A DNA stretch of 64,000 nucleotides from Amoebophrya sp. A120 (Eukaryota; Protista; Dinoflagellata), in contig CAJINV010000012.1 in assembly GCA_905178155.1 (NCBI GenBank), positions 3,343,144-3,407,143 of the forward strand, read 5' to 3'. Positions 20,098 through 57,500 of the stretch are shown here, one piece after another. Position numbers and translations under genes: made by a program. The notes beneath the pieces are model-generated. The model had not been told where the DNA came from. It did not search any database and was given only the letters and a program-made list of their open reading frames with translations. How positions within the stretch are numbered: the stretch's first letter is position 1; each line of letters begins with the position of its first letter.

Positions 20098-20250
20098 TAT
20101 GCATTGCAAATGTATCCCGGTAATATAAATTGCATTTCAAATTTCATCCTCAGCATGAGGTATAAGATTTCTAATGCGGAGTTACCTTAGGTAGAAGATC
20201 TGTCATGCATATTTGCAATTAGTATGAGTGCGATACTTTTGCAGAGCATA
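20098..20250. mobile_element. Introner family B
   Basis: DR TGACT; frame restored. Confidence 0.9.
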
Positions 20251-33358: not shown

Positions 33359-33455
33359 ATCGATTTTTCATGATTTTCAATTTCATTTGGATTTGTAGTT
33401 CCTTTATTCATTGCAGTTCCTTGTTGTTTTTGGATGTTGTTTCGGATGGTAAACG

Positions 33456-36400
33456 ATGGCGCCACTTAATAGTAAAAAGCCTTTCGACTTTTGGCAACAA
33501 ATATGTTCAGAAACAACCTGCAAATTTTTCTCACAGCTTTCCGACAAGCGGTTTTGGGAAACGTACCGTGCCGGCTTCATCCAATCTTTTCTGGAGATAG
33601 AAAAGCGCGTGCAGGCCAACGAGGTCCGAAAAACGAAACCAGACCAAGCACATGACACCGAAGTCGCGGAATACGAGATGGGCGAGTACAGCCAGCTCTG
33701 CGCGCACTTCCTTCTCGGCATCCATGACGAAGATGAGAAGGAGCGGGATGCGGTGGTGGACTTTTGGGCGTTGCCTGGCAGCGACATGGACGCGCGGAGA
33801 CCGTCGGCCGCGGGCTTTTCCAAACGCTCCACGGGGAGCAAAAGCAGCAAGGAAAGACTGAACAAGAAGTCCCCGGAACAAGAGGAGAGGAGAAGAAGGC
33901 TGGAAGCGTTTTTCACCGAGGAATCCAAGCTCTGGGTCGCGCTAGCCCTGACAAAAGAGCTGGACAAAAGATTTCCCAAGTACCAGGAGAAGAACAAAAA
34001 CAAAAGCGAGGCTTTCTTCTTCAACATCAAAAATTCCGGAACTTCGCACTACTCGGCAAAGCAAGTCGCGGTTTTATCGCCCGAAGTTTCCGACGGAATC
34101 CGGGAAATCATCCAAAACTGCAAAGATGATTCGGGAAAGAGAAAGAAGAAAATCGAAGAATCGTTGCAGCACTTCACGTATGAAATGCAAAAATGTCTGG
34201 GTCTGGAAGAGTGTGAACTTGTCATGCTGTTTTTGGACTCTAAAAAAATTTGCATTGCATGACCAGCAAGAAGGGTGCAATTTGTGCCTCACGGACAGGG
34301 CATTTCTCATGCCGAAGGTGCATCAGGAAGCTCTCCAAAAGTCTGCGATGCTACGTCATGCATTACAGGCATCATGGGTCATGAGAAATATGCATGACAA
34401 ATCTTGCATTCTTCCAGACCCAGACATTTTTGCAATCCATATCACCGGTCGAGGGTCGGACACAAACACGAAATCGCGGTCTTCCCACACATATCCTGGG
34501 CAAAAGCATTGTACTCGTACTAATCGCAGTCATGCAACACAAACTTCTTTTTCAAGCAAAATCAGCACGACAAATTCCATTTGTCATGCTGAGCTAATTT
34601 GTGTTGCATTACTACGTCTACGAGTGCGATATTTTTGCAGTGCATGACACAAATGAGGCCATTCTGATCGCGAACAAGCATGAAAGGGTGGAACCGGTTT
34701 ACCAGGAGCTGCTCGAACGATACAACTCGGACGATTACAACCCGACGAAAGAGGAGGAGGCCCGGCTGTCCCGCGCACTGCACGCAAACAAGCTGCTGAG
34801 CAAGGACTTGCACGGCAAGGCGAACGATTTGATGGCGCGGTACACCACGGACATTGCCTGGATGAAGCCAAACGGAGGGGCGGACAAGTGGAAAGTGATC
34901 CAGGAAGAAGCTTTCCACGCAGGGATTTTTGCAAAGCTGGAGTTGCAAGAAGTTCCGGAGCAGTTCAAAAGTGCTTGTGTGGACGAGAAGCTTGACCTTG
35001 ACGACGGTATTAAAGGCAAATCTTCTTCCTGCTGCATTGCGAAGTGCATCGACCTATGAAATGTAAAAATGTCTGGGTCTGGATGATTGCCAGGTTTGTC
35101 ATGCACATTTTGCATGACTCCTGATGTCTGTGATGCATGCCCTAGCATCACAGATTTTGTGAGGGCTTCCTGATGCCTATACCGCATGGCAAATGCTCTT
35201 TCCGTGTAGCAAAACTTGGACTCTCTTTGCTGCTCACGCAATGCAGATTTTTTTAGAATCCAAAATCAGCATGACAAGTTGGATTCTTCCAGACCCAGAC
35301 ATTTTTACATTTGATACGACCTGCTCGCCCGGGTTGAAGAGGTGTACAACAAGCTGCTGAAGAAGCTGGTTTATGAACTGCAAAAGTATCGTACTAGTAG
35401 TAATTGCAATACAAATTATTTCCTCAGCAATGAGAAATAAGATTTCTAATGCGGGTTTACCTTAGGAAAAAAATTTGTAATGCGTGAATGCAATTACTAC
35501 GACACGACTAGTACGATACTTTTGCACAGGATATGGTGAAGAACTACGCGAAAATACAGCCTGCCATGGGGGAATTCAGAAGAAAGCTCAACCAATACGT
35601 AAAGCAGCAAAAGTTGGAACAGAGTGAGAAGTTACGGGCGAACGTGGAGAGGTTCAAAACCACCATCAACAACTGGATCCAACGGGAATCCAACTACTTC
35701 AACGATGTGAATGCTTTGATGGAATTAGCAGCGGAGGAGTGCCCGGAGGCGGTTATTCCGAGGGTGGAGGATTTAGATCATGCACATCAACAGAATCCAT
35801 CCACACAGAACTCCAGTTTTTCCGCACTTGGTGTTGTTCCTGGAGACCAAAGCACCAAGTCCTCCATTGCGTCTTCCATCGTTTCGGACCTAAATAGCCG
35901 TGTGGTAGAGCCATGGTCACGGGAGGAAGACCCGCTGTTGGTCACGTACGCTTACGGGGGAAGCAGAATCTTCACGACAGATGCTAGTGCGGGCAGTTCT
36001 TCAAGTGCAACGAGTTCTAGCAGCATCAAGTACTTCCCCCCACAGCCGGAGCGGCGGCACTTGCCGGGAAACAAGGGCAGTTGCAGTGTCTGGCTACTCG
36101 GAAAGGCTTTGAAGGATATCACGACCAAAGGTCGCGACGTGGAGATTTACCGCTGCGGAGGGGACTATGCATTGCAAAAGTAACGTACTGGTGTAAATTG
36201 CATTACAAATTGAAATTTTCGCAAGAAGAGAAGTTGAATTTGTAATGCTGTTTTACCTTTGGAGGAAGATTTGTCATGCATATTTACAATTAGTACGAGT
36301 GCGATACTTTTGCACAGCATAGGGACGAGGAGGTAGGGATTGGAGGGATAATGAGCGGAGGCGGTGGTACATCAACTCCGGCAACCTCTTCCTCGAACCA

Positions 36401-39400
36401 GCAGCAGCAAGCACAGCACCTGAGTTTACCGGTTGCAAATAGAACCTGGGAGGCGCAGTGGGCGTTCAGCAAGTTTTTTTCCGACGTGGTTCTGCAAAAA
36501 CTTTTGGAAGACAACGGCTCTACTAGCACGATGATCAGCAACGACAAGAACTTCTCCGCTTCGAGTCATGATATGCAGTTCGACCAAAAACTCGACTTTT
36601 GGTTGTGCAGAGACGAACAAAATAGAAAAGAGTTGCGTCAGCTGTCCGACGTGATCAACGAATTGCGAGCCTCGCTCTTCTCGGAGGCAAGCTTCAAACT
36701 GATGAACTGGTCCGAACCCAATCCCATCCGTTATGGCGTTCTCAAATGTTACATTCTCAACTGTTACATGATTTGTAATGCAAAGCTACCTACTTGAGCC
36801 GCCAGGTGGTCCAGCTGCTTCGCATGACAAATCTGCGAAGGCCCAGACAGCACCTAAATCTGCGCCAAACTTGTAATGCAAAAGGCTCCTTTCACTTTTG
36901 CCAGTCTTGCATTACAAATTCATGTACCAGTTGAGAACGTAACATTTGAGAACTCCATACCCGTCCCGCGTTAAAGAAGCACCCGACCATAACCGCCCCC
37001 GGCGATAGGGAGAAGGACAGAAAGTATTAGAAGGAAAAATCCCCCCTCCCCATATCGAAACGAAGTTTCTGATGCTGGATTTCCGTACGCAAATCAGATT
37101 TGTCTTGCTGGAGAGGACTGCAGGCATATGCCAAGCCTCAGTCGAGAGGTTTTGACGTAGGCGCCTAGCATGGCAAATGTGTATGCTCTAAGCCCAACAG
37201 CATCACAAACCGCCTGGAAAGTGCGGGGCGCTCTCTGGACTTGCCTTCTTGCAAGACAGACAGGATTTGAGGTCACAAATGCGCATCGCAAATTTTCAGA
37301 CGGATACGTTTTCAATATGGGGAGGGGGGATTTTTCCTCACGATAAAAAGCTCGAAGCTGCTAAACCGCAAAAGTCGTTGGACCAGTTACACCAGGAGAT
37401 TCTGAAGGAGGTGTTTTCAGAAAATCTCCGGCACTTGTACCCGAAAAAGAACAAGAATTCCACAGCAGATCGGAGCTCTCTGGGCGAAAACTTGTCTCTC
37501 TGGTTGTTCTTCCAGCTTGCCGAGCGTTGCCGGGTCCTGTATGGATTGCAAAAGTGTCTGGGTCTGGAAGAGTGCAGGAGTTTGTCATGCAGATTTTGCA
37601 TGACCCATGAGGTCTGTGATGCATGCCCTAGCACCAGAGATTTTGCGAGGGCTTTCTGATGCTCATACCGCATGAAAAATGCCCTCTCCGCGTAGCACAT
37701 AATGCACCTCTTTTGCTGTTCATGCAATACAGATTTTATGTAGAGTGCAGAGGTAGCATCACAAGTTGCATCCTTCCAGACCCAGACATATTTGCATTTG
37801 ATATCCTGCAAACCTTGTTCAAGTACTTCTACTCGAATCTGCAACCGGAGGAACAGGAAAGGTTTGCTATCCTGTGCAAAAGTATCTACTCGTATTGCAA
37901 TCATGCATTGCAAATTTTTTTCTTGAGGTAAATCAGCATTACAAATTCTATTTCTCATGCTGAGGAAATTTGTAATGCATTTATGCGAATACGATACTTT
38001 TGCACTGCATATTTGCCACTCTGCCGCAACGGGGGAAGAAGGACATAGTGGAGCGCGAATTCACTTTGAACGAAGAGGAGCTGCGGAAGTGCGTCACGGA
38101 ATATTTAGCGGAGGCCGCGGGGAATATCTACAAGTCATCTGGCCTGAACAACATGAACCAGCAGTACAACCGAGTGCCGCAGGTTCTCTATCAAAGTGGA
38201 AAAAGCCCCCACCCCATATCGGAAACGGAAGATGTGCGAATTTGTGATGCTGTATTTGAGTACACAAATCGACTTGTATTGCTAGAAGGCCAAGAGACGA
38301 AGCTGCGCCCAAAATTGCTGGTAATCTGTCATGCTGTTTCCCACTTCCAGTCGCCTCGTGTCATCCTGGAGCTGCAAGGCTTTCCCACGCTAGACAGCAC
38401 TACAGTCCGCATCTTTTGCCTTCTAGCATCACAAAGCTAATTTGTGACCACGAATCTGCATCACAGATTTCCGTTTTGATATGGGGAGGGGGCATTTTTC
38501 ATTGTAATATCCTCCTCCGCACGGCCGACGAGCTGGATGAGAAGTACGGACTAGATCACATCGTCGCGACCAACCTGGCGAGTTGCATCGCGAAGCCGCA
38601 GAACGCCACAGCTCTGTCCACGGCGAAAGTGTGCATCACGATGCCGCGTGACCGGCTAGAATCGTTCTCGAAGAAATTTGTTTCCCGCCGGGAAGAGCTG
38701 CTGAAACGGGTGCAGAAAGAGTGGCAAATCCGGTTGAAAGTCGCACTGCAGGATTACGAACGACTGATGGCCATGTCTGGTGCGGAACAACATCCAAGCG
38801 AAGGCACCAGCAGTTCTGGTTCCCCCGAGCAACTATCGGCGAAGCAAATCGGCGAAATAGTTCACAACATTCAGCCGGTAGCGATGTGCAAAATCATGTA
38901 CCGACTCTATCACAGTCCGCACAATGAGGGAGCAAGAGCAATCTTCTGGTACGAACAGAAAATGGACTTTCACCGGACCACGTCCGGCACCGTAAAGTTT
39001 GACAACTGCCTGACCGGCGACGAAGCGAATGAAGCGAACCAGAAGATACTGCGGGAGTTTTTTTCGAATCGGAGGTTCGCGGTCAAAAAATACCATTTCT
39101 ACAGCTTCGAATTCGAGAAGGCCTTAAAGATCGAATTTTCCCGGCTCGCTTTGAAGATGAACCAGGTGAGCAGCGGGACACTTGACGCGGAGGTGACGCT
39201 GCTGAAGGGAAAAGTATTGGAACTCGCTAAAGAGTTACACGACTTGAATCCGAAGAAAAGATTGCGGAGCTTATTCACAAGGGAAGAATTGGAAAAGAAA
39301 GAAAAGGCATTGAACAGTGGTGGTTTCGAACAGCTGCTGTCCGCGCTGGATGCTGAGATTGTTCACACAAAAATTGCAAAAGAGAAGACGAACAAAGATC

Positions 39401-42400
39401 GTGGCACGTCTTCCTCCGCGCGAAGATTCGAACTGCAGCAGCCGATAAGGAAGAGCAGTTTCATCGACGCAGCGTCGCCACAAGCAGGGCCGCGCGGCAG
39501 AAGTACGTCCAGTCATTTCCTGTTGCAGAACAACGTCCTGAATAGCAGCCAAGAAAACCTCACCTCTACTTGTTACGCCGGAGGACACAACAAGCCTTTT
39601 GCTCCACTTTTTTCACCAGTGCGGGAGAGTAGTAGTAGCAGCAGTTCAACATCCGACAGCGACGACAGTGTTGATTCGCCGGAAAGATTTGGCAAGCTAT
39701 GGGCGGAAATTTGCAGCTTGAAGAAAACTTCTACAACGAATAATATAACCCCTGCTACTGGCGGAGTTGTAACGTCAAAGAATCGCGCTGTTGTTGCAGC
39801 GAGCACGAAAATTATGAACCGAGCTGCTGCAGCATCAAATGTACAGACAGCAGTACAACCACAGCATGGATTGAACAAACAAGCAATAGTTGCAAAGGCG
39901 AAACAACGAGCGCCCTCTGCGTCACCAAGAGCTGGTGGAGCCACGCCGCGGCCGCAGCAAGGTGCTGTTGTGAACGGTTTCACAACTGCTCTCAGCAGTG
40001 CAGCTGCAGGTCCAAACAATAATTACAAGCGACCACACTCTTCTTCCCCGTCCGGCGCACGGCCAGAAACGAAACTTGCGAAACCTGCAGGAGCAGGTCC
40101 GCAACGGGTTGATGCGACGCCACGAGGTTGTACTAACATGCAGCCAAGTATTAACTTCGCAGTGCCGATGGCGAGTCCGCGAGGAGCTTTGACGAAGCGG
40201 CAAGAAGAAATCGAGCAGCAGAAGCAGAGGCTAGAGATGATAGAGCAGCAGAAGCTACAGAACCAGCAGCAGCAGAAAGCACAGCAAATGAACCGAAGAC
40301 CTGTTGTCCCGGCCGGAGGCACGTTTCAACCCCCCATGCGAGGTCGATCCCCGGCTCCCGCTTCATCAAGAGCGGCGCAACAACAGATAACTCAGCCATC
40401 TCCTACAGCAGGCATCATTGTGCTCGAAGACACGCCAACTCCAGCGAAAGCGAACCTGGGTAACAACGTTCGAAACGGCATAAACCCGCTTTCTCCCTCT
40501 GCGATCGGCGAGCCGCATCCCGAACCGGAGTCAGGATCGGATTTGGAGGAAGAGATAAATCCACCCGGCGCGGGGGCACAGCAAGCAGTTCCAGGTGCTT
40601 CACGTAAGAATATCCAACCACAGAAACTCAACTACGATCATGCTGCTAAGAACAAGGGCAAGGTTGTTGCAGCGCCAACTTCTGTTGCGGCTTCTTCTTC
40701 TCAACAGCAAACCAAAGGAGCTCCGCGTCCGTCTGTTGTCCCCGCTGCACATGCACAGAGTTCGTCCGTTGTAGTCGGCACCAGCAGTAGCAGCAGTAGT
40801 TCTAGTGTTGCCGCAGCAAGGAACATCCAGCCACCGGGCGCAGTTGCTGCTGCGGCACAGCAGGAGCGCAAGAAAGTCCAGGTGGTCCCGAACCTTGCGA
40901 TAAATGCGCCCACTGTAGCTACTACTACGTCTGATGGTAGCACGCCGAAAGAGCTTCTTGTGCATGAGTATGGGGTAGTACAGTCGCAACAAAAAGAACA
41001 GCAACAGCTGCAACAAACCAGAATATTACCAAAACAGCCTACACCTCGAGCAGCAGCGACAACCACCACCCCCATCCAATCACACAATCAGCAAAACATA
41101 AGCAGCCAGCACCGCGCCAGCGTGACACCCGGCGGCTCCTTTGTGATGAAGTCCATGTCGCCCCGTTGGACTGCGATCGCGAGCAATGTAGAGGACTTCC
41201 GAAGCAGGATACGCGAATTGCACAAGACCTTACCCGCGGAGCAAATTGACTGGTTCTGTCAGACGATTGCGGAGTACCACCCATTATTGAAGCCCAGACA
41301 CGAGAAACTCGACCTTCCGGCCGCGGTTGAGTTACTGAATGAGTTTTCCTATCACGCGAGACACTGCTACCAACATTACAACACCTACACCTGGATATCG
41401 TTTTTAGAGGATCCTTCGCGGAATGGAAATCCCCGAGCTTCTACCTCGAACAGCGACGATAGCGGGGGAGACGCGCGGGGGAAGTTTGTGAAGCCGCCGC
41501 CGAGACTGTTTAATTTAGAAAAGGAACAAACGAAAATCAAGGGCAAAAGAGAGTGCGAAGCGCTATGGGATCGGTGGGATCGGTTTACGTTGTTGCTCTG
41601 TCTGATCGAGTATGAACTGCAAAATTATCGTACTCATATTGCAATCATGCATTGACAAATCTTTGTCTTCAGGTAAATCAGCATTACAATCATGCTGAGG
41701 AATGCATTTATACGAGTGCGATACTTTTGCAATTCATATCGAGATGGTGATCGAGATTTTATCGACGGTGCTGCCGAAAGAAGCGTATCACTACGCGCTT
41801 GCGAAAATTCAAGTTTGGTGTTTGGAAATGGCGGGGAATAGTAATAGCAAGAATGACAAGCTTCTTGCGACCATGAGAAAGAGGATGAAGACACTGCTGC
41901 CAGGTGGAGATGTTTCGGTGTATTCTGGGGGAAGTGACGATTACCACGAACTCCATGCCTGGATGGTGTTTGCAAGGTTTTACGTGCAGGCCAATATGGA
42001 CGAGCTAGAGCCGAAAGGTACAAATGGATACCGATACGAATACATTTTCCTCTTTTGTACTTATTAGAAGTAAGTGAAATTGTACCACTTTCAGTACATT
42101 GGTTGCCGTTTTTCTTTCTGTCAATGGTATCTCCTTGACAAGATTCGGGTTTTTTCTCATAACGAAAATTGATACAAAAACCAGCTCCCGGCGACATCGA
42201 TTCGCTTTACCTTCAGTTCCGGGAGTTGCGGCGGCAAGGCCTGACTGAAGCGGCGCTTGCGTCGCTCAAACACCATGATCCGGACCACGAGCAGCTGCGA
42301 CACAGGAACCTGCACACCGAGGAGAGCCGCCACTTTCTGGTGAGTAATCTGCTTCTCAACCCTGAGTACGGCTTGATCAAAGGTCGGGTTAACCGGCAAC

Positions 42401-45400
42401 GGGCGGAAAGCGCAACGGTGGCGGCGTTTCAAGGGGAGCACGCGGTGAGGCCCAGCGACGAAAACAAGATTGTTGAGGATAGCAGTTCTTGTGGAGAGCA
42501 GGGCGAGTTCTTCACCGAGCACCAAATTGCGGAACTGACCAACTTCCTCTGCAACCTCCACGAGCGACTCATTCGGGCCCAGGAGAAGAGGGCGCGCCGG
42601 AGCGATACGTACCAGCGGACCGCGATTGGGCTGATTACCATGGGCATGAAAATTGGCCAGCCGCCTGCGATGGTCAGTCCGAACTATATTTCCTCGGCCG
42701 CTGCTGGTAGTGATGGTCTTCTTGGACAGCAACAGAACAATAGCTCTAGACGCGCCGGTGGGCCAGGCTTTGCCACGAGCAGCAGCAGTTCCGCACTGCC
42801 ACATGGTCCGAGCGGCGTGCCGGTCTTGTCATTAGCCAACAACAATCCTGGCAGCAGTCCGGTGAGCCGCCAACAACTGGAAGCAGTAAGACAACAACAA
42901 TTGGCCAACGTATCGCCAGCAGTCGTGCACGGGCAGTACGACAAAAGATTTGGCATTTCCCCGGGGGAGCAGGCGGTTTTACGGGAACAAATACCCGCGC
43001 CGGGGATAAAACCTCCAAAGATGAAAAATGCAAATGCGGCGAAACCAAATCATCCAAAGGCAAAAGCTGCCGCCTCTCGCCGTGCGTCAACCGCTTCTGT
43101 CGCCGCTGGTGCGCCTGTTAGTAGTAGAAGGGGGTCAAAGGAAACGCTGAAGCAGAAAATGGAACGACAGTACAGGGATGAGCTGTACGGAATAGAAAAT
43201 GATTCGGACGAGTGGCTACCTCCGAAGAACCAGAGGAAGCCTTCGAAGCAACCCAAGGCAGCGGCTTCGAAGGCTGCGAATAAAGCGGGTCTTCTACCCG
43301 CCGCGAAGCATGGAGCGGCGGCCAGGAGACCTTCGACAGCTGTAGGGGGACCGAATACGCGAACCAATCAGCAACAAGCAGCCCCGCAACAGCTCGACGC
43401 GTCTGTGCTGGATGGAGATGAGTTGTATCAGGAAGAGGAGAGTAGTTCCTACGGTTTCGTCACGTCGAGAAAGCGCGTGCTCTACCACGAGTCACCTTTC
43501 AAGGAAAACATTCAGCAGCCAGATGCTTTTCACATCGCAGCGACAGATGAAGAAAATTTTGTTATCAATGGTGCACAGCAGCAGCAGCAAAATCCGGCTT
43601 CTGCCCGAAGCGCAGCTGGTCTTGTGCCGTCAAAAACAAAATCAGGCGGGGCCGCGGCAGCTGGTGGTAGCAGTAGCAGTAGTGGCGGCACAGGACCGAA
43701 TACTTTTTCCAGTGTATCTTCGAACCAACTACAAGCAGCAAGTAAAAACAGGCTGCCTCGTGCCAGTGTGCAACCGCAGCAAAACGACCTGGGCAACCAC
43801 AACCAGCGCGGTCGGCCTTCGGCCGCCGGCGGTGGCGGTCAGCAGCCATTGATCCGAGGGCCGAAGGCGAGCCGGGTCGCTGCACATAATGGCCCGCCTG
43901 TCACAACAAGCGTACTACCAGGAGCAGGCACAACCGGGAACAACATCAAGCCAGCTTCTACACCACGAAGTCATAACCAGACGAGAAACAAGCGGAGCAC
44001 GGCGGCCGCTCGGAACAACAACAAAGATGCGAACTGTGTAACAGATGAAGAGGTCGCAAACCTACCACCGTTGATTCTCCCAGATGTGAACAGGATCCAG
44101 TATCCACAGCAGCAGTACCCGCAAGTGTTCGACAATCATGGCAACCCGGTTCATTCCCCCGAGGCGCCACATTACGTGGCAGCACCAAATTATGAACTGC
44201 ACAAGTATCCTACTCGTATAAATGCATTACTAATTTCCTCAGCGTGACAAATAAAATTTGTAATGCGGATTTACCTCGAAAAGAAACTTTGTAATGCATG
44301 ATTGCAATACGAGTGCGATCCTTTTGCACAGGATACAAATCGCAGAGGGGCGAGACAAAGCAGGGCCAGCTTCCAGCCCCAGTATCAACTGTAAAAATGT
44401 CTGGGTCTGGAAGAATTCATGTTTGTCATGCTTGTCTGGCATGAGTCTTACATCTGTCATGCACGTTACCCAAGAGCTCCGTTTTTCTGTGATGCAGAAG
44501 CGCTGTTTGTCATGCAGAATAGGCAACACCTAGGAGCTCAGAAACTTGTCATGCTGAGCCAGCATTTGTAGCCTCATCATGAGACGCCGCCCAGCATCAC
44601 AAGTTTCCAGACCCAGACATTTTTACTTTTGATACCCAGTCTACGCATAGTATAATCGGAGGTCAGCACCAACAGCCTGGAATGCTTTTGAGTGGTGGTG
44701 CGAATTATCCAGTTCCGCAACACGTCCAGGCACAACTGCGCGCTCCGACGCCGCGAGGCAACAATCCAAGTACAAACTTCATGATGCAGCAAAACAATCT
44801 TCGTCAGCGCCAGCACGTCTCCTCGCCAAAGCTGAAGCGGCAGCGGGTTGAGTCTGAAGATTCGACCGCGGAATATCGGCTGTTTGAGAACAACCAGCAA
44901 TTTGTCGATTTTGATAAAGGAACAGAGGTGGACCAGCATCTTCATGCTGCTGGACAAGGACAACCACAGGCACAGACACAGCAGGACAATCGACACCCGC
45001 GCTCTCTTTCGCAGCAATCGCAATCGGAACAGTCTGAGCCAGTGTGGGATCCAGATTTGATGGGAAACAAGAGCCTCCTGGAGTTGAAGCCAAGGTCGAA
45101 AGAAACCAACGATGGGGATAATGATGAAGATAGCAGCATGATCAAAGTGACACAAGTGGCGTTTAAGCAACCGAGAACAGCAAGGGGTGGAGAACAGAAT
45201 CATGCGGCGGTGCAGAATCTGCAGCAACAATCTGCGTCTTCGTCGAGCCGAAATACCGGTTATTTCAGCAACCAGACCCACCTCCCCGGTGCGACGAGAA
45301 ATGGCACCATGCAAGGCGGAAGTAGAGCCGGCGGCGCTACGCCTCGCGTTGGAGGTACAAGGCCTGGGGGTTCTGGTTTCACGATGAACTCGAACCATCA

Positions 45401-45584
45401 CCACCGTGCCGATGAGCAGGAAATAAATCGACAGATGATGTTCCAGCAGCAGCAGCAGGTGCAGCAGCAAACGATGGCGCAACAGAGCAACCAAATAAAG
45501 CGTCCGGGAAGAAACGCTTTCGGGGCTAATGCTCGGAGTGGCATCTACGCGAAAAATAAAAGCAAAATAAATATCTTTGGCTGA
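33456..45584 (+). CDS. Very large uncharacterised protein (helical N-terminal region, Q/S/A-rich low complexity)
   Basis: One continuous frame after removing 13 introners and GT-AG intron 42018-42184; no domain recognised. Confidence 0.75.
34179..34441. mobile_element. Introner family A
   Basis: DR TCACG/TCACC; frame restored. Confidence 0.9.
34492..34646. mobile_element. Introner family B (TATCCTG end first)
   Basis: DR ACACA; no GT/GC or AG boundary possible; frame restored. Confidence 0.88.
35055..35316. mobile_element. Introner family A
   Basis: DR CGACC; frame restored. Confidence 0.9.
35372..35533. mobile_element. Introner family B
   Basis: DR TGGTT/TGGTG; frame restored. Confidence 0.9.
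36166..36321. mobile_element. Introner family B
   Basis: DR GGGAC; frame restored. Confidence 0.9.
36732..36959. mobile_element. Introner family F (single copy here)
   Basis: TIR TATGGCGTTCTCAAATGTTACATTCTCAACTG / CAGTTGAGAACGTAACATTTGAGAACTCCATA, DR TCCGT/CCCGT. Confidence 0.9.
37025..37345. mobile_element. Introner family E (321 bp)
   Basis: DR GAAAG/AAAAG; frame restored. Confidence 0.9.
37540..37803. mobile_element. Introner family A
   Basis: DR TCCTG; frame restored. Confidence 0.9.
37868..38011. mobile_element. Introner family B (TATCCTG end first)
   Basis: DR TTTGC; frame restored. Confidence 0.9.
38189..38509. mobile_element. Introner family E (321 bp, divergent interior)
   Basis: DR TTCTC/TCCTC; frame restored. 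Confidence 0.87.
41611..41738. mobile_element. Introner family B
   Basis: DR TCGAG; frame restored. Confidence 0.9.
44191..44335. mobile_element. Introner family B
   Basis: DR CAAAT; frame restored. Confidence 0.9.
44383..44634. mobile_element. Introner family A (252-bp subfamily)
   Basis: DR CCCAG; interior is the reverse complement of 47408-47659. Confidence 0.92.
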
Positions 45585-47218: not shown

Positions 47219-49958
47219 ATGTCGAAGCGCACCGCTGATCAGCGTGATACCGCCGCCGACACTACCGAGGAAAAGATGTACTCTTCTGGATACAGCAGCA
47301 ACCAAGGTAGCTACGGCTACAGCAACGGAGGAGGTTACGCTTCTCAGGCCATGTACCAGCCGCAGCAGCAGTCCGCTCCGGGCCCGGATTGGTCCAAGGA
47401 CTGGCGGTATCAACTGTAAAAATGTCTGGGTCTGGAAACTTGTGATGTTGGGTGGCGTCTCATGATGAGGCCACAAGTGCTGGCTCAGCGTGACAAGTTT
47501 CTGAGCTTCTAGGTGTTGCCTATTCTGCATGACAAACTGCGTTTCTGCATCACAGAAAAATGGAGCTCTTGGGTAACATGCATGATAGATTTAAGAGTCA
47601 TGCCAGACAAGCATGACAAACATACACTCTTCCAGACCCAGACACTTTTACATTTGATAGGCGGTCCCCGGCTCCGCAGATGACCCCGTCCACCACCGGT
47701 TCTGATCAGGATCGCAACTCGCCTGCGACCAAGCGCCCGCGTCACGGAACTGCTGGCAACATGCAGGACCAGTGTCAGCACACGGTTGAGCAGTATATGA
47801 AGGAGAACGAGGTGGAAGTCCGCAACTACGACGCGAAGAACATGTGTCTCACCTGGGACGTATGCATTGCAAAAGTATCGTACTAGTATAAATTGCATCA
47901 CAAATTTTGGCAAGAAGAAAAGGGGAATTTGTAATGCTGTTTTACCTTAGGAAGGAGATTTGTCATGCATATTTGCAATTAGTACGACTACGATACTTTT
48001 GCACAGGATAGGACGACTGCCCCTTCCCCGCGGAAATGACCCAGAAACTCCGCAACTTCCCGAAGCCGTCTGTGATCCAGGCTGCCGCGTGGCCGATCGC
48101 GGTCAGCGGGAAGAACCTGATTGGTATTGCGGAGACCGGAAGTGTATCAAATGCAAAAATGTCTGGGTCTGGAAGACTTGTAATGCTAAAAGTGAATGGT
48201 AGACGCACTGCAATACGCAGCTATGCATGACAAATTTTTTGGCTCCCATGTCTTACGTACTCCGCATGACAAACTGCGTTTTTGCATGACAGGTAAGAGG
48301 GCCTTTTCGTGCCAATGCAACGCAGATTCTGGAGTCATGCCAGACAAGCATGACAAACTTGCATTCTACTTCCAGACCAGGACGCTTTTGCATTTGATAA
48401 AGTGGAAAGACGCTCTCCTTCCTCCTCCCCGCGGCGATGCACTGCCAGGAGAAGCAGCGCTCCGGCCGGGGAAATGGGGGGTACTACGGATCCAGCGGTC
48501 CCTACGCCATGGTCTTGGCGCCGACCCGGGAATTGGTATTATAGGATTTTGGCAAGAACATGCATAGAAAACGTTTACATGTGAACGTGCTGCTGTACTA
48601 GTGATTGTCATCCCAATAAATAATGCGTACGTAAGTACACCACGTACAGAAGAGATCATATTGGCTTTCGATACGAAAAATGAAAATGTCCTCACGACAA
48701 CATCAGAATCGTTATATAACAAAAAATGGAAAACAGGTCCAGCAAATCGAGCAGGAGTGCAAGAAGTTTACCACCCTGCGTTCCGCCAGTCTTGTCGGTG
48801 GTCTCCCGAAGGGCCCCCAGATCGGTGCTCTCCGCCGCGGGGTCGACATCATCATTGCCACCCCCGGTCGTCTGTGCGATCTGGTGGACATGCGGGTGTG
48901 CGATTTGTCTCAGGTTGACTTCTTCATCTTGGACGAGGCGGATCGCATGTTGGACATGGGTTTTGAGAAGGATCTCCGGAAAATCAACGGTATGCTCACC
49001 CGCAACAAGCAGACCCTTCTGTTCTCCGCCACCTGGCCCCGAGAGGTCCAGCGGTTGGCGCAGGACGTGATCGCCGAGGCCTACGGTGTCCGCACCCCGG
49101 AGGTCCGGATTGGCGGCGCCGGGGACGCGAACCTCCGCGCGAACCCGAATATCAAGCAGACCGTGCACATGGTGAATCATTACTCTGAGAAGAACAGACT
49201 CCTCGGGAACATTTTGGACGAGTTGAAGCGGGAAAACAATGGCGAACACCCATTGATTCTGGTCTTCTCCAAGACGAAGAAGGGGTGCGACCAGCTCGCG
49301 CGGGACATGCAGTACTCGATGCGGGTGCACGCACAGTCCCTGCATGGTGACAAGTCCCAGCCGGAGCGTGACTGGGCGCTGGAGCAGTTCAAGACGGGAA
49401 GGAAGCCGGTCTTGGTCGCGACCGACGTCGCGGCGCGCGGGTTGGACGTGAAGAACGTGAAGTGCGTTATCAACTACGACTTCCCAACGAACGTTGAGGA
49501 CTACGTCCATCGCATCGGGCGGACGGGTCGTGGTGGCGCGTTGAACGGAGTGGCGCACACCTTCTTCTGCGAGAAGGACTGCCAGTATAGAGTTGTTTTG
49601 TGTTTTTGCATGACAGGCAAAATGTGTACTTCGTTTTTTGCATTACAGACTTTTTCGAATCGCGGCTTCGAAAATTTTGCTCCGTGTTGCAAATCAAAAC
49701 GAAAATCGAAGCAATTTGCACAACAGGAACCCGGGCAAGTGCGCTCGCGAGCTGACTCAGATCCTGAAGGAGGCCAAGCAGGAAGTCCCGCACGAACTCC
49801 GCAACGTCACCTCATCCGGCTCTGGAAAGGGCTTCGGCAAGGGTCGTGGATTCGGTGGCGGCAAGGGCGGTGGCAAGGGAAAGGGCGGCTTCGGAGGCGG
49901 TGATCGATTCGGTGGCGGTGGCTTTTCGTCCGGTGGCTTCGGCGGCGGAAGATGGTAA
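47219..49958 (+). CDS. DBP2: DEAD-box RNA helicase, DBP2/DDX5-like
   Basis: Q motif PSVIQ, AETGSGKT, LAPTREL, ATPGRL, LDEADRMLDMGF, SAT, LHGDKSQ, HRIGRTGR and a Gly-rich tail; 3 introners plus GT-AG introns 48536-48736 and 49585-49726. Confidence 0.9.
47408..47659. mobile_element. Introner family A (252-bp subfamily)
   Basis: DR GGCGG; frame restored. Confidence 0.92.
47861..48010. mobile_element. Introner family B
   Basis: DR GGACG; WD-DCPF. Confidence 0.92.
48145..48399. mobile_element. Introner family A inside the helicase Walker A motif
   Basis: DR AAGTG; removal restores AETGSGKT. Confidence 0.94.
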
Positions 49959-51852
49959 ACGAAAGATGAAGAACGATTATCATCATATCTGTGAAAGTGA
50001 AGATGCATCAACAAACTTATAAAACCGAAAGTACTTCTTGTTCTGAAGCACGTTGCTGCTCTCAGCAGGGCGTCGCTTTATTTTGGTAGTTACGCTACGA
50101 AATGGACAATGCTTTTTCTATCGAGATGCAAGCTTGTTCTTACGGAAAGATAGCGATCTACTTTGAAGAAGAACGGCATGATAAGCCTGTCCTCCGAGGA
50201 GACAGAGAATATGCGCCATTGCAACCCAAAAACAACATATTGAAGACCTACGTACAACACCTATTCTGATATCCAATGCAAAGCTAAACTTCGAGCTAAG
50301 GCTACTTTTTTTTTACAGCAATTGACTACAACTACAGCTTTCGTAACTATCCCAGCCTGTTTTTACAACATCGGTATTAGATATCGCAGTAGCTATCAGT
50401 CACGGCAGCAAATTCATGATTTGCACGACGCTGTGTCTGTGATAGCAAAGTTGCCAAGCGGTATCTTTTGTCAATCAAAAATCAAGGAAACTGAGACGAT
50501 CTCTGCTACCTCTTTAAGGGCTTCTTTTCTTCACCGTCTGGACGCCAGTTCAACCACTTTTAGAAAGAAAAAACTAACCACCTCTACAAGCAAATGAAGA
50601 AAACAGCTACCCTTACTGAGCCGCTATTGCATCGCCTGTTAGTTTATGCCTCGTCTTTGTGACGCAGCAAAAACTCACAACGCGGTTACAAAAGATTTAT
50701 CAAATGAAAGACTACTAATTTGAAACTACGAGCGACTGCAAATTGTGTGCACTTTCACTCGAAAGTCTTGAAGATACAAAAACGCGCTCCGCCTCAGTAT
50801 ATTTTTACCCCATTTAGAAGAGAAAGGATAAGGCTCCTGTGCCCGGTGCTTCTAGTAGTAATGCGTAGATGCGTCGGGAGTAAAAATTGAACTCCGGATT
50901 ACACGATAATTCCGTAGAAGACGAGAAGATGTGTTGGTTTAAAAACTACAAGAGTATCACCCTACCCGGAAATATTAGGAAAAACCAACTCCATGATGGT
51001 GCACAGAAAGAATACTACTTCACGGAACTCTTTCACCTTACGTGCACGACTACACATTCATTCAAGAACACCGTTCTTCGTATTTATTGCGAACAAGTTC
51101 TTCTAGAGACGCAGTGCGATTTCGACAACGAAATGTATCCCGAATCGACGGATGCAGAATTTTGTCTTCGCAGCTGCGCTTTTTAAACCAAAAAAAACCA
51201 ACATGCGACACTTTCAATTTACAGAGCCTATTTTTCATAATCAATGGAAGGAATTATATCGAAGTGGTGGAAAAAGGAAACAATTGTTTCTTGAGATTTT
51301 TTACGCGATAATTATTTCTCTTTCACACAACAAGAACTATCTTCTGAGACTTCAACAGGTCAGGTTTTCAAGCAGGGTGATCAAGTGCCTAGTAAACCGT
51401 TCTACTCTTTTTGTAATGCGGTCGGCGCAGGTGGCGCATCGTTGAATTTTACCAGGTATCCGAAAAATAGAAAAAGAGAAGAGGTAGCCCGTATGGAGTG
51501 TCGCTCCTCGGCTACGAAATCGAAGAGCGCAGTGGAGTCGTGTTCTGCTAAATCAAGATCCGGTATGTCCTGTATAGAAAAATAGGTCGTTGTAGCATGT
51601 TGTTGATCATCCCACGGGCCACTCTCTGGTACGACAAAGATCCTTGATCCAGATCCCGAAAGGCACAGATTCGCACTTCAAAATATCAAGACCTTGACAC
51701 TATCACTATATATCTGAATCTAACGCGGCACCGAGGTGGCGGGCGGCAAAACCGAAAGCGATAGTTAATACCAGCCCCAACGCCAACATATTTTTCCGAT
51801 GTAACAAGAGCTCGAGGACGTCGGAAACTGCGACGCACTACAGGAACAAGCG

Positions 51853-53897
51853 GTGCGCCTGACAGAAGATTCCGGATCAGCCTCCGGCGTGTTTGCATTT
51901 CACTATGCCCGGGCCCAAACTCCGTTGAATTTTCATCAACTCGCTGCCTATCTGTGCTTGCTGCAACAGCGCAACGACTTATTTGCGGTCGATTGTACTA
52001 ATGTCGCGGACGAACACGCGGACGAGGATCACAGTCGCGTGGCACCGAACAACTACGTTGGCAACGATGCGGCTGCAGCAGAAGGCGGCGCAGCCCCTAC
52101 TGGCAACGGCAAAAACACCACAGCCGCTACAGAGCTCCAACACGACAAGCCCTCCACAAGACGAGCGCAAGGACATCTCATTTCGAAGGAAGAAGCGGCG
52201 GCCCAGTTCCACCGCCGCGCCTTACTTCGCGAGGCTGGAACCGAATCCCGAAAAACCCGCTGGCTATGGGCGAGTCTCGGGATGATTGTCGGCCAGGTCC
52301 TGGTTTTGATTGCCGTCTACGGTGCCGTGCGGCAGCTATCCTGTGCAAAAGTATCGTAGTCGTATTAATTGCAAATATGCATGACAAATCTCCTTCCTGA
52401 GGTAAAACAGCATTACAAATTCCACTTTTCCTCTGAACAAAATTTGTGATGCAATTTATACTAGTGCGATACTTTTGCAATGCATAGCAGCCTGCGTGTA
52501 GCAAGTTCTCCGCGGACGTGTGCCCGTTGGGGACGTGGTGTCGGGAGAAACAGGGCATCTGCATGTGGTGTGCATTTTGGTATCGGTCGATGTGCGAAGA
52601 ATTTCTCACAACCAACTCGTGGCGGGAGCACGTTGTGGATTGGTACAATTCCACGACGAGTGGAACAAGTGCAACATCGTCGTCCACTTCGGTGTTGCAA
52701 TTATCTTCAACAGAGGAGTTCCACTTGTCCACGACCTATTTTACCCCCCGCAAAAAGCAGGCGGATGTCGTAAACAACCGAGAGAAGGATTCTCTCTCCA
52801 TCGCTCTCGACGGGACGGAGGGCACGGACCTGCCGGGTATGTGTTACGGCTGCATGCGGGCGCTTCACGAACCAGATCTGAATCGAGTGAGCGTGAACCG
52901 TCCGGCCGATTTTGCGGGCTTTAACGCAAAGCGACAGTTCATCACGACGGAGAATGCGGACGTGTTGAATGTGCAAGAGCTAAACCGGGACGCTTACCTT
53001 GTCATTTTCGCGAGTTCGTTAATCGTTGCCTTGGCCATCTGCCGCGAGCTGAAGGACGTGCATTTGTGTCGTTTAATGATACTGCGTCACGATGAAGATG
53101 TTGATCATGATGCGCGAGCACTATCGACGTCCCCTGGAGGTTCTTCATCCTCGTCCAGAGTCAACAGGTTCATTCTGCTCGCCGGGTGCTACTTTCGCCG
53201 CTTCGGGTTAGTCGCTTTGGTGACGATGTCCATTCCAGCGCTGATTACTCATCGCGGCCGGGACGCGTTGGCGATTTGTGTGAACGCGGTGGCGATTTTA
53301 TTCCTCCTCGAGATCGACAATTTTGTGTACGATTTCCTGATTTCGGAGAAACTAACCGGCAGCTTCGAAATCGCCACGCGGCTGGATCTGCACCTGACGC
53401 CGCAAGACGCGATGCAGTTGCGCGTGCAAAAGCTGACGCATTTGTGCTTTATTCCTTGCGCAGTCCTCGTGAATCTCGGCCTGGTTGGGACAACCTACGA
53501 CACCTGGGCCATACCTGGGCACGCGGGTGGGGCCGTGAAAGAGTGGGCGATTCTGGCGATCACAATAGCCATGGCCACGGCGTTTCCGGCACTGATAGAA
53601 GACATCGCAGTTGAGAAGATGGCTGCAACTGTTGAACCTCCTGATGGGGCTTCCACACCGGTAAAAGATATTGGGCAACCTTACGCAGCCGGGGCTCCAA
53701 CGCCAGAGAACAAGGGATCAGCTGACGCAGCAGCAGACGTTACTACAGTTCAGACGGCGACGAGGTCTACCAGTCGTACACGCTTCGAGGTCCTTGTTGC
53801 GAACTCCGCTCTAAAGCACCTGCTGGCCTTTCTCGGCAGATTACTGTTTGGCTTTGTTACAGTCGCCATTGCGAGTTTTCTAACATGGGCAAGGTAA
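51853..53897 (+). CDS. Multi-pass membrane protein of unknown function (5' end uncertain)
   Basis: ORFs 51853 and 52518 join after introner removal; several hydrophobic helices, e.g. ICVNAVAILFLLEIDN. Confidence 0.65.
52337..52486. mobile_element. Introner family B (reverse orientation)
   Basis: TATCCTGTGC...GCAATGCATA, DR GCAGC. Confidence 0.9.
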
Positions 53898-54514
53898 GTA
53901 GGAATAACCGCATTAGTACCACATAGCTTGGACACCACGACGTTTGAGAGAGAAAGGCAGTTGAGCCGCTTTGAGGTGCCACTGTTTGGAGTAAACCTGA
54001 ATTCGCCAGAGAATTATCGACTTTTTGTTGCGCTCGAAGATGTTGTGTTGCAGCTATGAATCTATATAGCAGTGGAACATGAGATGTTTGTGGTGGAAAA
54101 TAAGCGAGAAAAAAGAGAAAGAGCCCCGATAGGAGAGTCGAATTTGTAAGTAGCGAGGAACAGGGAACGAGAGACGAATATGAACAGTCGTCGCTACAGC
54201 ACCTATCTTCAAAACGAACACAAAATGATGTACAGTTTCAGTTTGTCTTTCATCAAAAAAGCGCGAGGTTTTGATTGTTGGCACGCAGGATCGGTTGTTT
54301 CGGCCCATGATACGATAGCGCCACCCGTAAGTGGGGTACACGAAGTAGAATCGTTCGCAATCCTTCCCGGAATGATCGTCGTTTTAACCCGAGATTGTTG
54401 TAGTTGTTTGATGCTGACTTGCGTATGGCAAGTTTGGTTTTTCGATCGAACTGCACATTCACCGACTTTTCCCACTTGAGAGCTGCACTCTTCCAACTCC
54501 TATCGTGAAACATA

Positions 54515-57500
54515 ATGACTACCCCCGCTGCAGCACCACCTGCAAGTGCAGGGCAACAGCAGCAACAGCCCCAACAACCCGCCCCAGCAGTCCCCCAACC
54601 TCTCCCCGTGACGACTTCCACCGCCGCTGCAATAGCACCTCCTCCACCTGCAGTAGCCAATACGAAGGATAATCAGGACGACGTCGGCCCATTGGACAGT
54701 ATCTCCAATGTCGGCTCTTCCGCCACCGCTTCCACCTCCTGGCAGGGAATCGACTTCTCTTTACGTCCTCCAAAACCGCAACTTGCGTGCAACGTCGAGA
54801 ACTACACCTACAAACCGTGGTACGCGTGGACGCGCGAAGAGGTGGCGTCTGACAGTTCTATCAAGTATTTCAGAAGAAAAATAAAAGGCGTCGACTACGG
54901 AGATGATGACGATGAGGATGACGAAGGCGGAAACACGAAACATTCAACAAAAATCACCGCCGTTTCCTCCCTCGAGACCAGTCACGAAATCGCGCGGGAA
55001 AGGGAGAAACAGGAAGAGGAGCTGAAAGTGAAGCAGATGCTGCGGCGAAGCAGCTCGATTTCCTCTTTTGTCAACCCGATAGAGCTTTTTGGAAGGAGGA
55101 ACAGCAGCAATCAACTGGTGATGCCGCCGAGCGGAGCAGGAGATGCTGACAAAGACAAGAAGGACAAAAAATCGGCGGTAAAAAACGACTCCTCCGACGG
55201 CTCGGTTTTGAAGCCTTCTTCTGCAACCGAGCAAGAGAAGAAAGACGGCCAACCGGCAAACCCGTCCGACGACACCACAAAATCGGATTCCAATGACAAG
55301 AAGGAAGAAGAGTTTTCAGACCATCCGCCCACCGTCGTCCACTTCGTTCTCGACGTGAACAGTTGGTCGGTGGAAACCGTCGAGGCGCGGGAAATCCTGC
55401 ACGCGAAATTCACCTTCCACTGGTACTGGTGCGATGAAAGACTGATCGGCTACCCGCCGGAAAAAGATCTGCCGAAAAATGTCTGGCGGCCGGAAGTGAT
55501 GGCGTGCGCGGGCGTATGAGAGTGCACAACTCCCCCTCGAGCCCCTCGTTTGTAGGGCATGGGCAGCAATACAAGCGGCGGCAACAGTGCAGGTTTTGAA
55601 TGACAAATCCACCTCGGGTCGTAGTGCTGTTTGGGCTGCCAGAATCTGTCATGCAAGAAGTGCCAAGAGGCAACGGGCGCGTTTGGTAATTAGCATCACA
55701 AATGAGGTGGAGGGGGAGTTATGCGCGCTCATAGGGGGTGAAGGTGGACGAGAAATATGAGACGATGCCGAAGTTTCAGTCCGGCCCGCACCAGAAATTC
55801 AACGGAGAGCTGGAGTTGTCGCTAGTCGCGACCTTGGAGCCGGGGTACGACATGCAGAAGGACATCCAGCGGCTACGGGTGTTCCCCTTCGACAGTCTCC
55901 GGTTAGATTTATCCGTGTCCTTACGACAGTGCACCACTCCCCCTCCGCCTCATTTGTATTGCATCACCAGCAATGCAAACGCCAGCGGCCCTGGAGCCTG
56001 TGCATGACAAATCTATGTGCCTACTGTAGTACTGCTTGGGCTTTCGAAATTTGTCATGCAAACCATGCCACAGGCAAGCGGCTGCATTTCGAATTTTGGA
56101 AGACAAATGAGGGGGAGGGGATGTTGTGCACTTTCATAGCCCTCGCACAACCTGAAGCGGTTTGACGGCGTGAGCGAGATCCAACTCAGGTTAGATAGGA
56201 AGAATCCGGGGGGCAGGAAGGACAAAGGACATCCGCACCAGCACGTCAACTGGATCTGCACGAATAAGAACAGCGGGGAATACGAGTGTGTGGAGTTGAG
56301 ATACGGGTTGGGGAGGTTGACGTGGAAGGAAAAAAGGATTCCGCAGTTCTTGTTCTCCTTCTCGTTGAAAAGAACCGCGAATTACTACGTGTTGAAGGGA
56401 ATAATACCGCTGTATTGCTCCATGTTGTTCGGCGCCATGAATTATTTCACGGAGGTGAATGACTTGTCCACGCGGCTGCAGTCGTTATTAGCGCTGTTCC
56501 TCACCTGTTTCGCGATTCAGTGGACGTTGTTGGAAAGATTGCCGAAGTTCCCGTTTCTAACCGTTTTGGACAATGTCGCGTACTCCGTGGTGATCGCGTT
56601 GTTTTTAATGGGCTCCGGGTTCTGCATTGCTTATTACACTTGCAGGGAGCGACTCGTGATCGAAGACAGTGAAATCGTCTGCGGGAGCTCCACTAGCGGG
56701 TCCGCCAGCAGTCCGTCGATCGGACAGAATTCCCCCTCTGGCGGCTCCACCGGGCAAACAACGACCTCGAACGCGTGTGCAACCGCGAACAGTCAGTCCG
56801 GGGTGATGACTACGAAAACGACGAAGGATTTTTTCGTGCGGTTCGACTTGGACAAGGGGGAATTAGTGGATAAAATCTCCATTTTAGTCGTCGCCGTGTA
56901 CGTCTTGATCTACTGCATCGGCTACAAGTTTTTTTACACGGTGTTTTTCAGTAAGAAAACGCGGAACGGGGGAGCGTACAGAGCGTGGCGGGACGGCGCG
57001 GATTTGCGGAATAAGTATCAAATGCAAATATATCTGGGTCTGGAAGAATGCAAGATTTGTCATGCATATTTCTCAGGACCCATGATGCCTGTACTGCATG
57101 ACCTAGCATCACAGACGTTTGGAGGGCTTTCTGATGCGCCTTCCGCATGAGAAATACCCTGCCCGTGTAGTACAAATTGGATCCCTCTTGCTGGTGATGC
57201 AATACAAATTTTTCTACAATCCGAAAACAGCATGACAAGTTGCAACCTTTCAGACCCAGACATATGTGCAATGCATAATAAGTATTTTAAACCGATTCGG
57301 GCTTGGTGTCTGAAGCTAGATGACGCGTTCTTCCGCGGAGGAGTGTTTTTAGGGATGGGCCGAGGCCAAGGTCGCGTGGCCGCACAGGTCGACTTCATTC
57401 GTCGGGGTCCACCACCGAATGCGGAAACAGGACGCGTCGTCCGGGTTCACCTTTCTTGTGTCGTGCCGGATAAAAGTACCTCCAGGGCAGCCCTCGGCAT

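What the first reader, a model, noticed from the sequence alone, without database searches (positions are those of the whole stretch)
34179..57277. Removal is orientation-independent: the same element sits in both directions in + strand genes
Seen: 44383-44634 and 47408-47659 are reverse complements of one 252-bp subfamily. 34179-34441 and 57016-57277 are likewise inverted (TACAGGCATCATGGGTC versus GACCCATGATGCCTGTA). Family B is inverted at 52337 relative to 47861. All host genes are on +. Established: spliceosomal donor, branch and acceptor signals are polar. Inference: recognition is symmetric. It could use an RNA stem that juxtaposes the ends (as proposed for euglenid nonconventional introns), a dsDNA-bound mark, or excision at the DNA level analogous to ciliate IESs, which also leave one flanking repeat.
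Basis: partly seen in the sequence, partly recalled or inferred. Interest (0 to 1): 0.8.

Follow-up and report, generated by a model that had tools for sequence, protein, structure and literature searches.

The report
Two-way introners of a marine parasite
These are already described transposon-derived introns of the marine parasite Amoebophrya A120: RNA reads lack them precisely whichever way round they sit and the DNA keeps them, likely because their mirror-image ends look the same to the splicing machinery in both directions.

Summary
Observation confirmed. The three pairs are reverse complements (232/252, 226/263, 142/150 identical). The window is Amoebophrya sp. A120: the spliced helicase equals the public A120 protein. 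The elements are its introner elements (TAT-N7-AAA inverted ends, 5-bp direct repeat; Farhat 2021). RNA joints skip exactly element+5 nt at 12 of 16 elements in 33900-48500, in both orientations of two families. A DNA run keeps them at 13 junctions. Of 133 strand-assigned copies, orientation is balanced (24:27, 14:9, 11:12) and 123 have no GT/GC-AG in any register. The inference needs correcting: inverted ends give a polar machine the same termini either way, so orientation independence does not show a non-polar mechanism. Two-way introners are known in Polarella and Aureococcus. IES-like DNA excision is not supported. Small additions: mismatched direct repeats place the 5' cut at least 2 nt into the left repeat (4 sites), and the stems show no G-U excess over A-C. 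The splicing mechanism stays open. Known feature with an undocumented detail; interest 0.3.

The parts
34179..34441 (.). Introner, family A 263-bp subfamily, reference orientation; direct repeat TCACG/TCACC (mismatch at position 5)
   Evidence: removal inferred from ORF only, no RNA joint listed
57016..57277 (.). Introner, family A 263-bp subfamily, opposite orientation to 34179
   Evidence: RNA contig piece ends at 57009 with 67 letters beyond
44383..44634 (.). Introner, family A 252-bp subfamily, reference orientation
   Evidence: RNA joint 44377>44635, 257 nt skipped, in X3 and X4; fold z -6.98
47408..47659 (.). Introner, 252-bp subfamily, opposite orientation to 44383
   Evidence: RNA joint 47402>47660, 473 raw reads in X12 plus X3, X4; fold z -5.94
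47861..48010 (.). Introner, family B, reference orientation
   Evidence: RNA joint 47855>48011, 440 raw reads
52337..52486 (.). Introner, family B, opposite orientation to 47861
   Evidence: RNA contig starts at 52487 with 12 other letters before; 645-codon ORF restored
48145..48399 (.). Introner, 252-bp subfamily, inside the ETGSGKT motif of the helicase
   Evidence: RNA joint 48139>48400, 438 reads; depth 1 at 48175 in X12
34492..34646 (.). Introner, family B, opposite orientation
   Evidence: ORF only
35055..35316 (.). Introner, family A, opposite orientation to 34179
   Evidence: RNA piece ends at 35049 with 25 letters beyond
35372..35533 (.). Introner, family B; repeat mismatch at position 5
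   Evidence: ORF only
36166..36321 (.). Introner, family B, same orientation as 47861
   Evidence: RNA joint 36160>36322
36732..36959 (.). Introner, unclassified; repeat mismatch at position 1, RNA keeps the left letter
   Evidence: joint 36727>36961
37025..37345 (.). Introner, family C; repeat mismatch at position 1, RNA keeps the left letter
   Evidence: joint 37020>37347
37540..37803 (.). Introner, family A, opposite orientation to 34179
   Evidence: joint 37534>37804
37868..38011 (.). Introner, family B, opposite orientation
   Evidence: joint 37862>38012
38189..38509 (.). Introner, family C; repeat mismatch at position 2, RNA keeps the left letter
   Evidence: joint 38185>38512
41611..41738 (.). 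Introner, family B, opposite orientation
   Evidence: joint 41604>41738
44191..44335 (.). Introner, family B, same orientation; removed from the same RNA contig as 41611
   Evidence: joint 44185>44336, X3 record of 6943 nt
55515..55733 (.). Introner, family D; repeat mismatch at position 4 (no RNA cover seen)
55922..56138 (.). Introner, family D; repeat mismatch at position 2, RNA piece starts at 56141 so the left letter is likely kept
33453..45584 (+). Host ORF of 3032 codons after removal of 13 introners and one GT-AG intron (42018-42184); no Pfam hit in three exons tested
47219..49958 (+). Host gene, DEAD-box RNA helicase of 574 aa; three introners and two GT-AG introns
   Evidence: identical to public Amoebophrya sp. 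A120 protein P0001; Pfam
51805..53897 (+). Host ORF of 645 codons (stop to stop), one introner
54509..57522 (+). Host ORF of 766 codons (stop to stop), three introners

Best explanation
These are Amoebophrya A120 introner elements, short repeats with terminal inverted repeats and a 5-bp direct repeat that stay in the DNA and are missing, with one repeat copy, from RNA in both orientations, likely because a divergent spliceosome reads their inverted ends, which are the same either way round. Shown: A120 identity, anatomy, exact removal of element+5 nt, both orientations, retention in one DNA run, no GT-AG or YTRAY dependence, 5' cut at least 2 nt into the left repeat. Inferred: origin as non-autonomous DNA transposons inserted without strand preference; removal after transcription; the invariant end motif (TAT, TG, AAA) plus the long terminal stem define both splice sites at a fixed offset. 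My preferred register is 4 nt into the left repeat, so that the intron begins N-TAT like the GTAT/GTAC donors of the three canonical introns here; this is untested.
For: Organism and annotation. End motif matches the description for A120 (PMC7789003 section 11). Joints at 12 of 16 elements, all element+5. 438-473 raw reads per joint, against depth 1 at 48175 inside one element. DNA contigs unbranched at 13 junctions. Orientation balanced. For a spliceosomal reading: nearly all spliceosomal proteins and U2, U4, U5, U6 were found in A120, U1 was not, and 15% of canonical A120 introns share the IR/DR layout. Canonical donors in the window are GTAC, GTAT, GTAT. Arm positions 4 and 7 are unpaired (neither Watson-Crick nor G-U/A-C) in 49 of 122 copies each, while TAT, TG and AAA stay fixed, which fits motif reading better than pure pairing.
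Against: No common 3' AG: at the preferred register 14 of 133 end in AG. YTRAY is depleted near the 3' end. The canonical introns have A-rich 3' ends, the elements T-rich arms. No lariat, knock-down or nascent-RNA data, so spliceosome use is not shown. The end calling used a symmetric matrix, so likeness of the two ends in the metagenome set is partly by construction. The DNA run may be the source of the assembly and shows one life stage. The register rests on 4 sites at repeat positions 1-2 only.
Confidence: 0.5

Rival explanations
1. Removal is at the RNA level but by a separate, non-spliceosomal system guided by the terminal stem, as proposed for euglenid nonconventional introns (cut and ligate, or circularisation).
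For: A terminal stem of about 40 bp forms in both orientations, z -6.98 and -5.94. No conserved boundary dinucleotides or branch consensus. U1 not detected in A120. Euglena precedent (PMC12501133 abstract and passages; PMC11282704 section 6).
Against: No strand-specific stem signature: G-U vs A-C pairs 42 vs 54 in 71 family-A copies and 43 vs 45 in 122 copies; sense folds better in 68 of 133. This test is weak, since many mismatches may come from the parent element. The Euglena signature (CDG at +4, purine after the 3' end) is not the A120 end motif.
Confidence: 0.33
2. The element is skipped during transcription: a protein bound to the double-stranded TIRs, or a DNA hairpin, makes polymerase jump from the left to the right direct repeat.
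For: Predicts left-copy letters at all five repeat positions; positions 1 and 2 are left in 4 of 4 sites. The G-U/A-C balance fits a double-stranded signal. Element RNA is scarce (depth 1 at 48175).
Against: No precedent known to me (recalled). Removal is exact with 4-of-5 repeats. RNA contigs with element ends joined to other flanks exist (loose ends), though they may be DNA or intergenic. Positions 4 and 5 were not observed.
Confidence: 0.08
3. IES-like excision from DNA before transcription.
For: Excision leaving one flanking repeat fits the joints. The joint table of the DNA run was cut (884 rows not shown), and contigs drop rare variants.
Against: DNA run X1 contigs at depth 41-43 pass unbranched through 13 junctions, and one spans element 55922 whole. 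Dinoflagellates have no germline/soma nuclear split (own knowledge), and dinospores descend from the infecting cell, so excised copies would be lost for good. Copies are up to 9% diverged from consensus, so they have been kept a long time.
Confidence: 0.03
4. The joints are reverse-transcriptase template switches across a hairpin flanked by direct repeats.
For: Hairpin plus direct repeat is the usual substrate (own knowledge). All RNA data laid here appear to be cDNA-based.
Against: Near-complete skipping. 84 of 133 removals are not multiples of 3, and one element splits the helicase ETGSGKT motif that is intact in the A25 orthologue, so real removal is needed. A jump after copying the right repeat would keep right-copy letters, but left letters are kept at 4 of 4 sites.
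Confidence: 0.02

Closest known systems
Amoebophrya A120 introner elements (Farhat et al. 2021, PMC7789003; read: outline, sections 10-12, passages, text of the supplement)
   Same: Same organism. Ends start TAT, seven variable bases, then at least three As; 3-5 nt direct repeats; hairpin; non-canonical borders.
   Different: Nothing of kind. The paper's text does not address orientation to the host gene (4 hits for 'orientation' in the main text and 3 in the supplement, those shown all about genes) and leaves the border position unknown.
Polarella glacialis and Aureococcus anophagefferens introner-like elements (bioRxiv 2020.10.14.339549; read: passages)
   Same: TIR/TSD elements that create introns in either orientation.
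   Different: They use GT/GC/GA donors and AG acceptors taken from the element or the TSD, with a bias to one orientation. The A120 copies have no such sites in 123 of 133 cases and no bias.
Euglenid nonconventional introns (PMC12501133, abstract and passages; PMC11282704, section 6)
   Same: Non-GT-AG borders, terminal pairing, flanking direct repeats, MITE-like origin proposed, machinery unknown.
   Different: Signature N3CDG...CHGN5-6|R and short pairing in Euglena; TAT-N7-AAA ends, long stems and high-copy families in A120. Circular products are reported in Euglena and untested here.
Fritillaria borealis MITE-derived non-canonical introns (via PMC11282704 section 6)
   Same: TIR/TSD-derived non-canonical introns, reported as removed by an adapted spliceosome.
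   Different: Prevalent AG-AC/AG-AT borders there; no prevalent border dinucleotide from the repeat here.
Ciliate internal eliminated sequences (recalled, no call)
   Same: Transposon-like ends, one flanking repeat left.
   Different: IESs leave the somatic DNA. These elements are retained in the DNA run tested.

Membership tests
Amoebophrya A120 introner elements | Located in Amoebophrya A120 | tested here: met
   Spliced 574-aa helicase identical to P0001, named Amoebophrya sp. A120
Amoebophrya A120 introner elements | Inverted ends starting TAT, seven variable bases, at least three As | tested here: met
   against the text; families D and E fit the A run less well
Amoebophrya A120 introner elements | 3-5 nt direct repeat at the borders | tested here: met
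   5-bp repeat; 171 of 222 metagenome copies perfect, called without using the repeat
Amoebophrya A120 introner elements | Repeated families, removed from RNA with non-canonical borders | tested here: met
U2-type spliceosomal introns | GT/GC donor and AG acceptor | tested here: not met
   10 of 133 in any register; 47408 is one of them
U2-type spliceosomal introns | Branch consensus near the 3' end | tested here: not met
   YTRAY in 12 of 133 vs about 64 shuffled; a TNAC core sits in the subterminal motif, role unknown
U2-type spliceosomal introns | Lariat formation, dependence on U2/U6 | not testable with these tools
   needs lariat sequencing or inhibition
Euglenid nonconventional introns | Terminal stem joining the ends | tested here: met
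   predicted folds; no selection signature
Euglenid nonconventional introns | N3CDG...CHGN5-6|R signature | tested here: not met
   end composition and flank composition, read against the signature
Ciliate IES | Excision from genomic DNA | tested here: not met
   one DNA run, contigs unbranched at 13 junctions; other stages and rare variants untested
MITE (non-autonomous TIR DNA transposon) | TIRs, fixed-length TSD, short, non-coding, many copies | tested here: met
MITE (non-autonomous TIR DNA transposon) | Cognate autonomous transposase | not tested
   no genome held; none found in A120 by Farhat; PMC12130899 reports an A120 TIR family with integrase-like homology

The most novel reading that the evidence does not exclude
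Amoebophrya A120 removes tens of thousands of introns with a second, spliceosome-independent RNA excision system that reads transposon ends, needs no donor, branch or acceptor signal and is blind to orientation, which makes any insertion of these elements into a gene harmless.
Probability: 0.3. Interest if true: 0.85.

Novelty: already known. Interest (0 to 1): 0.3.

Why it matters
How Amoebophrya splices its non-canonical introns is an open question, and Farhat et al. left even the border position unknown. This locus adds constraints. Both orientations are removed exactly. No border dinucleotide or branch consensus is needed. Imperfect direct repeats work and act as natural reporters of the cut site. 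DNA excision is unlikely. If a non-spliceosomal system were shown, it would be a second case beside Euglena. Orientation independence itself is expected from inverted ends and does not decide the mechanism.

Tried and rejected
1) A hint that the direct repeat is only ever mismatched synonymously at positions 4-5 (4 of 4 in the window) failed in the metagenome set (2 of 7 synonymous). Mismatches occur at all positions: 12, 8, 3, 4, 7 of 133. 2) A hint of transcription-polar ends (position 4 C/G 33:11 in 98 loci copies; GG start 16 at the 3' end vs 5 at the 5' end) reversed in the window (5:8) and in 56 further copies (1 vs 5); rejected. 3) An excess of G before TAT in the window (16 of 35) was not seen in 98 loci copies (34, like other positions). 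4) Codon phase as a guide to the register: phases 0/1/2 were 23/54/21 in the loci and 15/12/6 in the window; inconclusive. 5) No exonic consensus around the site. 6) The pattern had 0 matches in viral contigs; Rfam had 0 matches in the window; no earlier scan notes. 7) Two joints (34212>35096, 37060>38239) link element interiors with other letters between and were set aside as copies from other loci; the element-to-element joints of X1 likewise. 9) X13 and X14 gave no cover of the introner junctions. 10) No whole genome was held, so there is no genome-wide count. Huff 2016 could not be read and is known here only through citations.
Full report
Observation. The three pairs named are reverse complements at the stated coordinates: 232 of 252, 226 of 263 and 142 of 150 identical, against 170, 172 and 101 in the forward sense; the difference holds when the inverted ends are trimmed. 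I catalogued 35 complete elements in the window. A search that asked only for inverted ends and a 4-mer repeat, not for TAT, returned 32 candidates at the one-base offset, 26 of them TAT...ATA elements, against 5-8 in three shuffles. Each element is 128-422 bp, starts TAT and ends ATA (three exceptions at one letter), and is flanked by a 5-bp direct repeat.

Identity. Removing the elements gives a 574-aa DEAD-box helicase (47219-49958) identical to a public protein named Amoebophrya sp. A120; the next hit is the A25 orthologue at 73%. Farhat et al. 2021 (PMC7789003; outline, sections 10-12, passages and supplement text read, figures not seen) describe introner elements in A120 with ends starting TAT, seven variable bases and at least three As, 3-5 nt direct repeats, 29,850 copies, hairpins, no U1 detected, and border position unknown. 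The elements here are these.

Host strand. Removing each element plus 5 nt, and three GT-AG introns, puts 33 of 35 elements in + ORFs of 200 aa or more, including 3032 codons across 13 elements at 33453-45584. Five shifted removal lengths leave at most 1187 codons. GT-AG joints and a poly(A) end are on +. The RNA libraries are unstranded, so strand rests on these features.

Removal in RNA. In 33900-48500, 12 of 16 elements have a listed joint, and each skips exactly element+5 nt (15 rows shown, 4 not shown; one row is a GT-AG intron, two were set aside as other loci). No joint is listed for 34179, 34492, 35055 and 35372, where cover is low. Opposite orientations are both removed: 44383 against 47408 and 48145 in the 252-bp subfamily; 36166, 44191 and 47861 against 37868 and 41611 in family B. 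Elements 41611 and 44191 are missing from one 6943-nt contig. Raw reads of X12 give 473, 440 and 438 joint reads, against depth 1 at 48175 inside an element. Runs X3 and X4 are flagged as guessed RNA, but they skip GT-AG introns too; they are one sample, so the support is two studies. For 52337 and 57016 the evidence is indirect (pieces stop at the repeat). For the 263-bp subfamily only one orientation (37540) has a listed joint.

DNA. Run X1 keeps GT-AG introns and covers intergenic DNA evenly, so it is DNA. Six of its eight listed pieces, at depth 41-43, pass unbranched through 13 flank-element junctions, and one spans element 55922 whole; the other two touch no element. This excludes a common empty allele in that sample. 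It does not exclude rare variants or other stages: contigs drop rare variants, the joint table was cut, and X1 may be the source of the assembly. A parasite with one nuclear lineage could not keep elements that it excised from its DNA (own knowledge).

Wider sample. These hold 222 distinct elements, up to 96% identical to window copies; 171 have a perfect 5-bp repeat, called without using it. Of 207 with at least 3 of 5 repeat matches, 98 had a confident host strand by a codon model, checked only on its training set (31 of 31). With the 35 window copies, 118 of 133 could be classified. Orientation to the host is balanced: 24:27, 14:9 and 11:12 in the three large groups; 6:2, 4:1, 5:1 and 2:0 in four small ones.

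Signals. Only 10 of 133 allow GT/GC-AG in any of six registers. YTRAY occurs in the last 70 nt of 12 of 133, below mononucleotide shuffles. There is no exonic consensus. Both orientations fold into a long terminal stem (z -6.98, -5.94), but G-U and A-C mismatches are balanced (42 vs 54 in 71 of 74 family-A copies; 43 vs 45 in 122 of 133) and the sense strand folds better in 68 of 133. This test has little power. Arm positions 4-7 often fail to pair while TAT, TG and AAA are fixed. A motif GCATNACA recurs in inverted pairs, 36-46 nt from either end in family A and at unequal distances in family B; it may be a transposase site or a branch site.

Cut position. Where the two repeat copies differ, RNA shows which letter is kept. 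The left letter is kept at position 1 (36732, 37025) and position 2 (38189; 55922, inferred from a piece start). So the 5' cut lies at least 2 nt into the left repeat, and a perfect repeat is not needed. Positions 4 and 5 were not covered, and these four sites do not include an opposite-orientation pair. A cut after position 4 would start the intron N-TAT, like the GTAC, GTAT and GTAT donors of the three canonical introns; this is a guess.

Mechanism. Inverted ends show the same termini in both orientations, so a polar machine is also blind to orientation. Introners of Polarella and Aureococcus do this with ordinary splice sites (bioRxiv 2020.10.14.339549, passages). What is odd in A120 is the lack of splice dinucleotides, and that is published. 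I put RNA-level removal at about 0.85: a divergent spliceosome reading the ends 0.5, a Euglena-like non-spliceosomal route 0.33. Polymerase skipping gets 0.08, DNA excision 0.03, RT artefact 0.02.

Novelty. The elements are known in this genome. I found no statement on their orientation in six searches (listings seen) or in passages of PMC7789003, PMC12130899, PMC9860276, PMC11282704, PMC12005148, PMC12501133 and PMC13326754. Subscription papers, supplementary figures and bioRxiv supplements were not seen and may bear on this. Verdict: already known, with an expected but apparently undocumented detail and a usable way to place the splice sites. Interest 0.3.

Noticed in passing
window 57349-57987 (-): PhzC/PhzF-family ORF (Pfam PF02567, E 1.7e-19) on the minus strand, overlapping the end of the + ORF 54509-57522; a diverged paralogue shows in runs X1 and X3.
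   Followed up: partly
window 58770-58988: Half of a family-A element with only its right end (58816-58988), preceded by about 40 nt that repeat 57315-57355; looks like a local rearrangement.
   Followed up: no
window 54509-57522 (+): The spliced ORF has FPFD and WRPEV motifs and several hydrophobic stretches that recall pentameric ligand-gated ion channels (recalled; Pfam gave no hit on exon pieces).
   Followed up: partly
all element families: Shared subterminal motif GCATNACA / TGTNATGC, 410 hits in 24.3 kb of element cores and none in 3 kb of coding sequence.
   Followed up: partly
window 24079-24500: A 422-bp family-A copy, about 160 bp longer than its relatives; probably an internal insertion or duplication.
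   Followed up: no
L063 1822-2101: A family-F element whose flanks read as an 8-bp rather than a 5-bp direct repeat.
   Followed up: no
window 12919-13215 and 17667-18255: Three tandem copies of 99 bp, and two copies of 242 bp spaced 347 bp apart.
   Followed up: no
window 49958-51475: The helicase transcript has a 3' untranslated part of about 1.5 kb, with poly(A) behind 51475.
   Followed up: no
window 19483-20250: Two elements do not fall in a restored ORF of 200 aa or more; unmodelled GT-AG introns are a likely reason.
   Followed up: no
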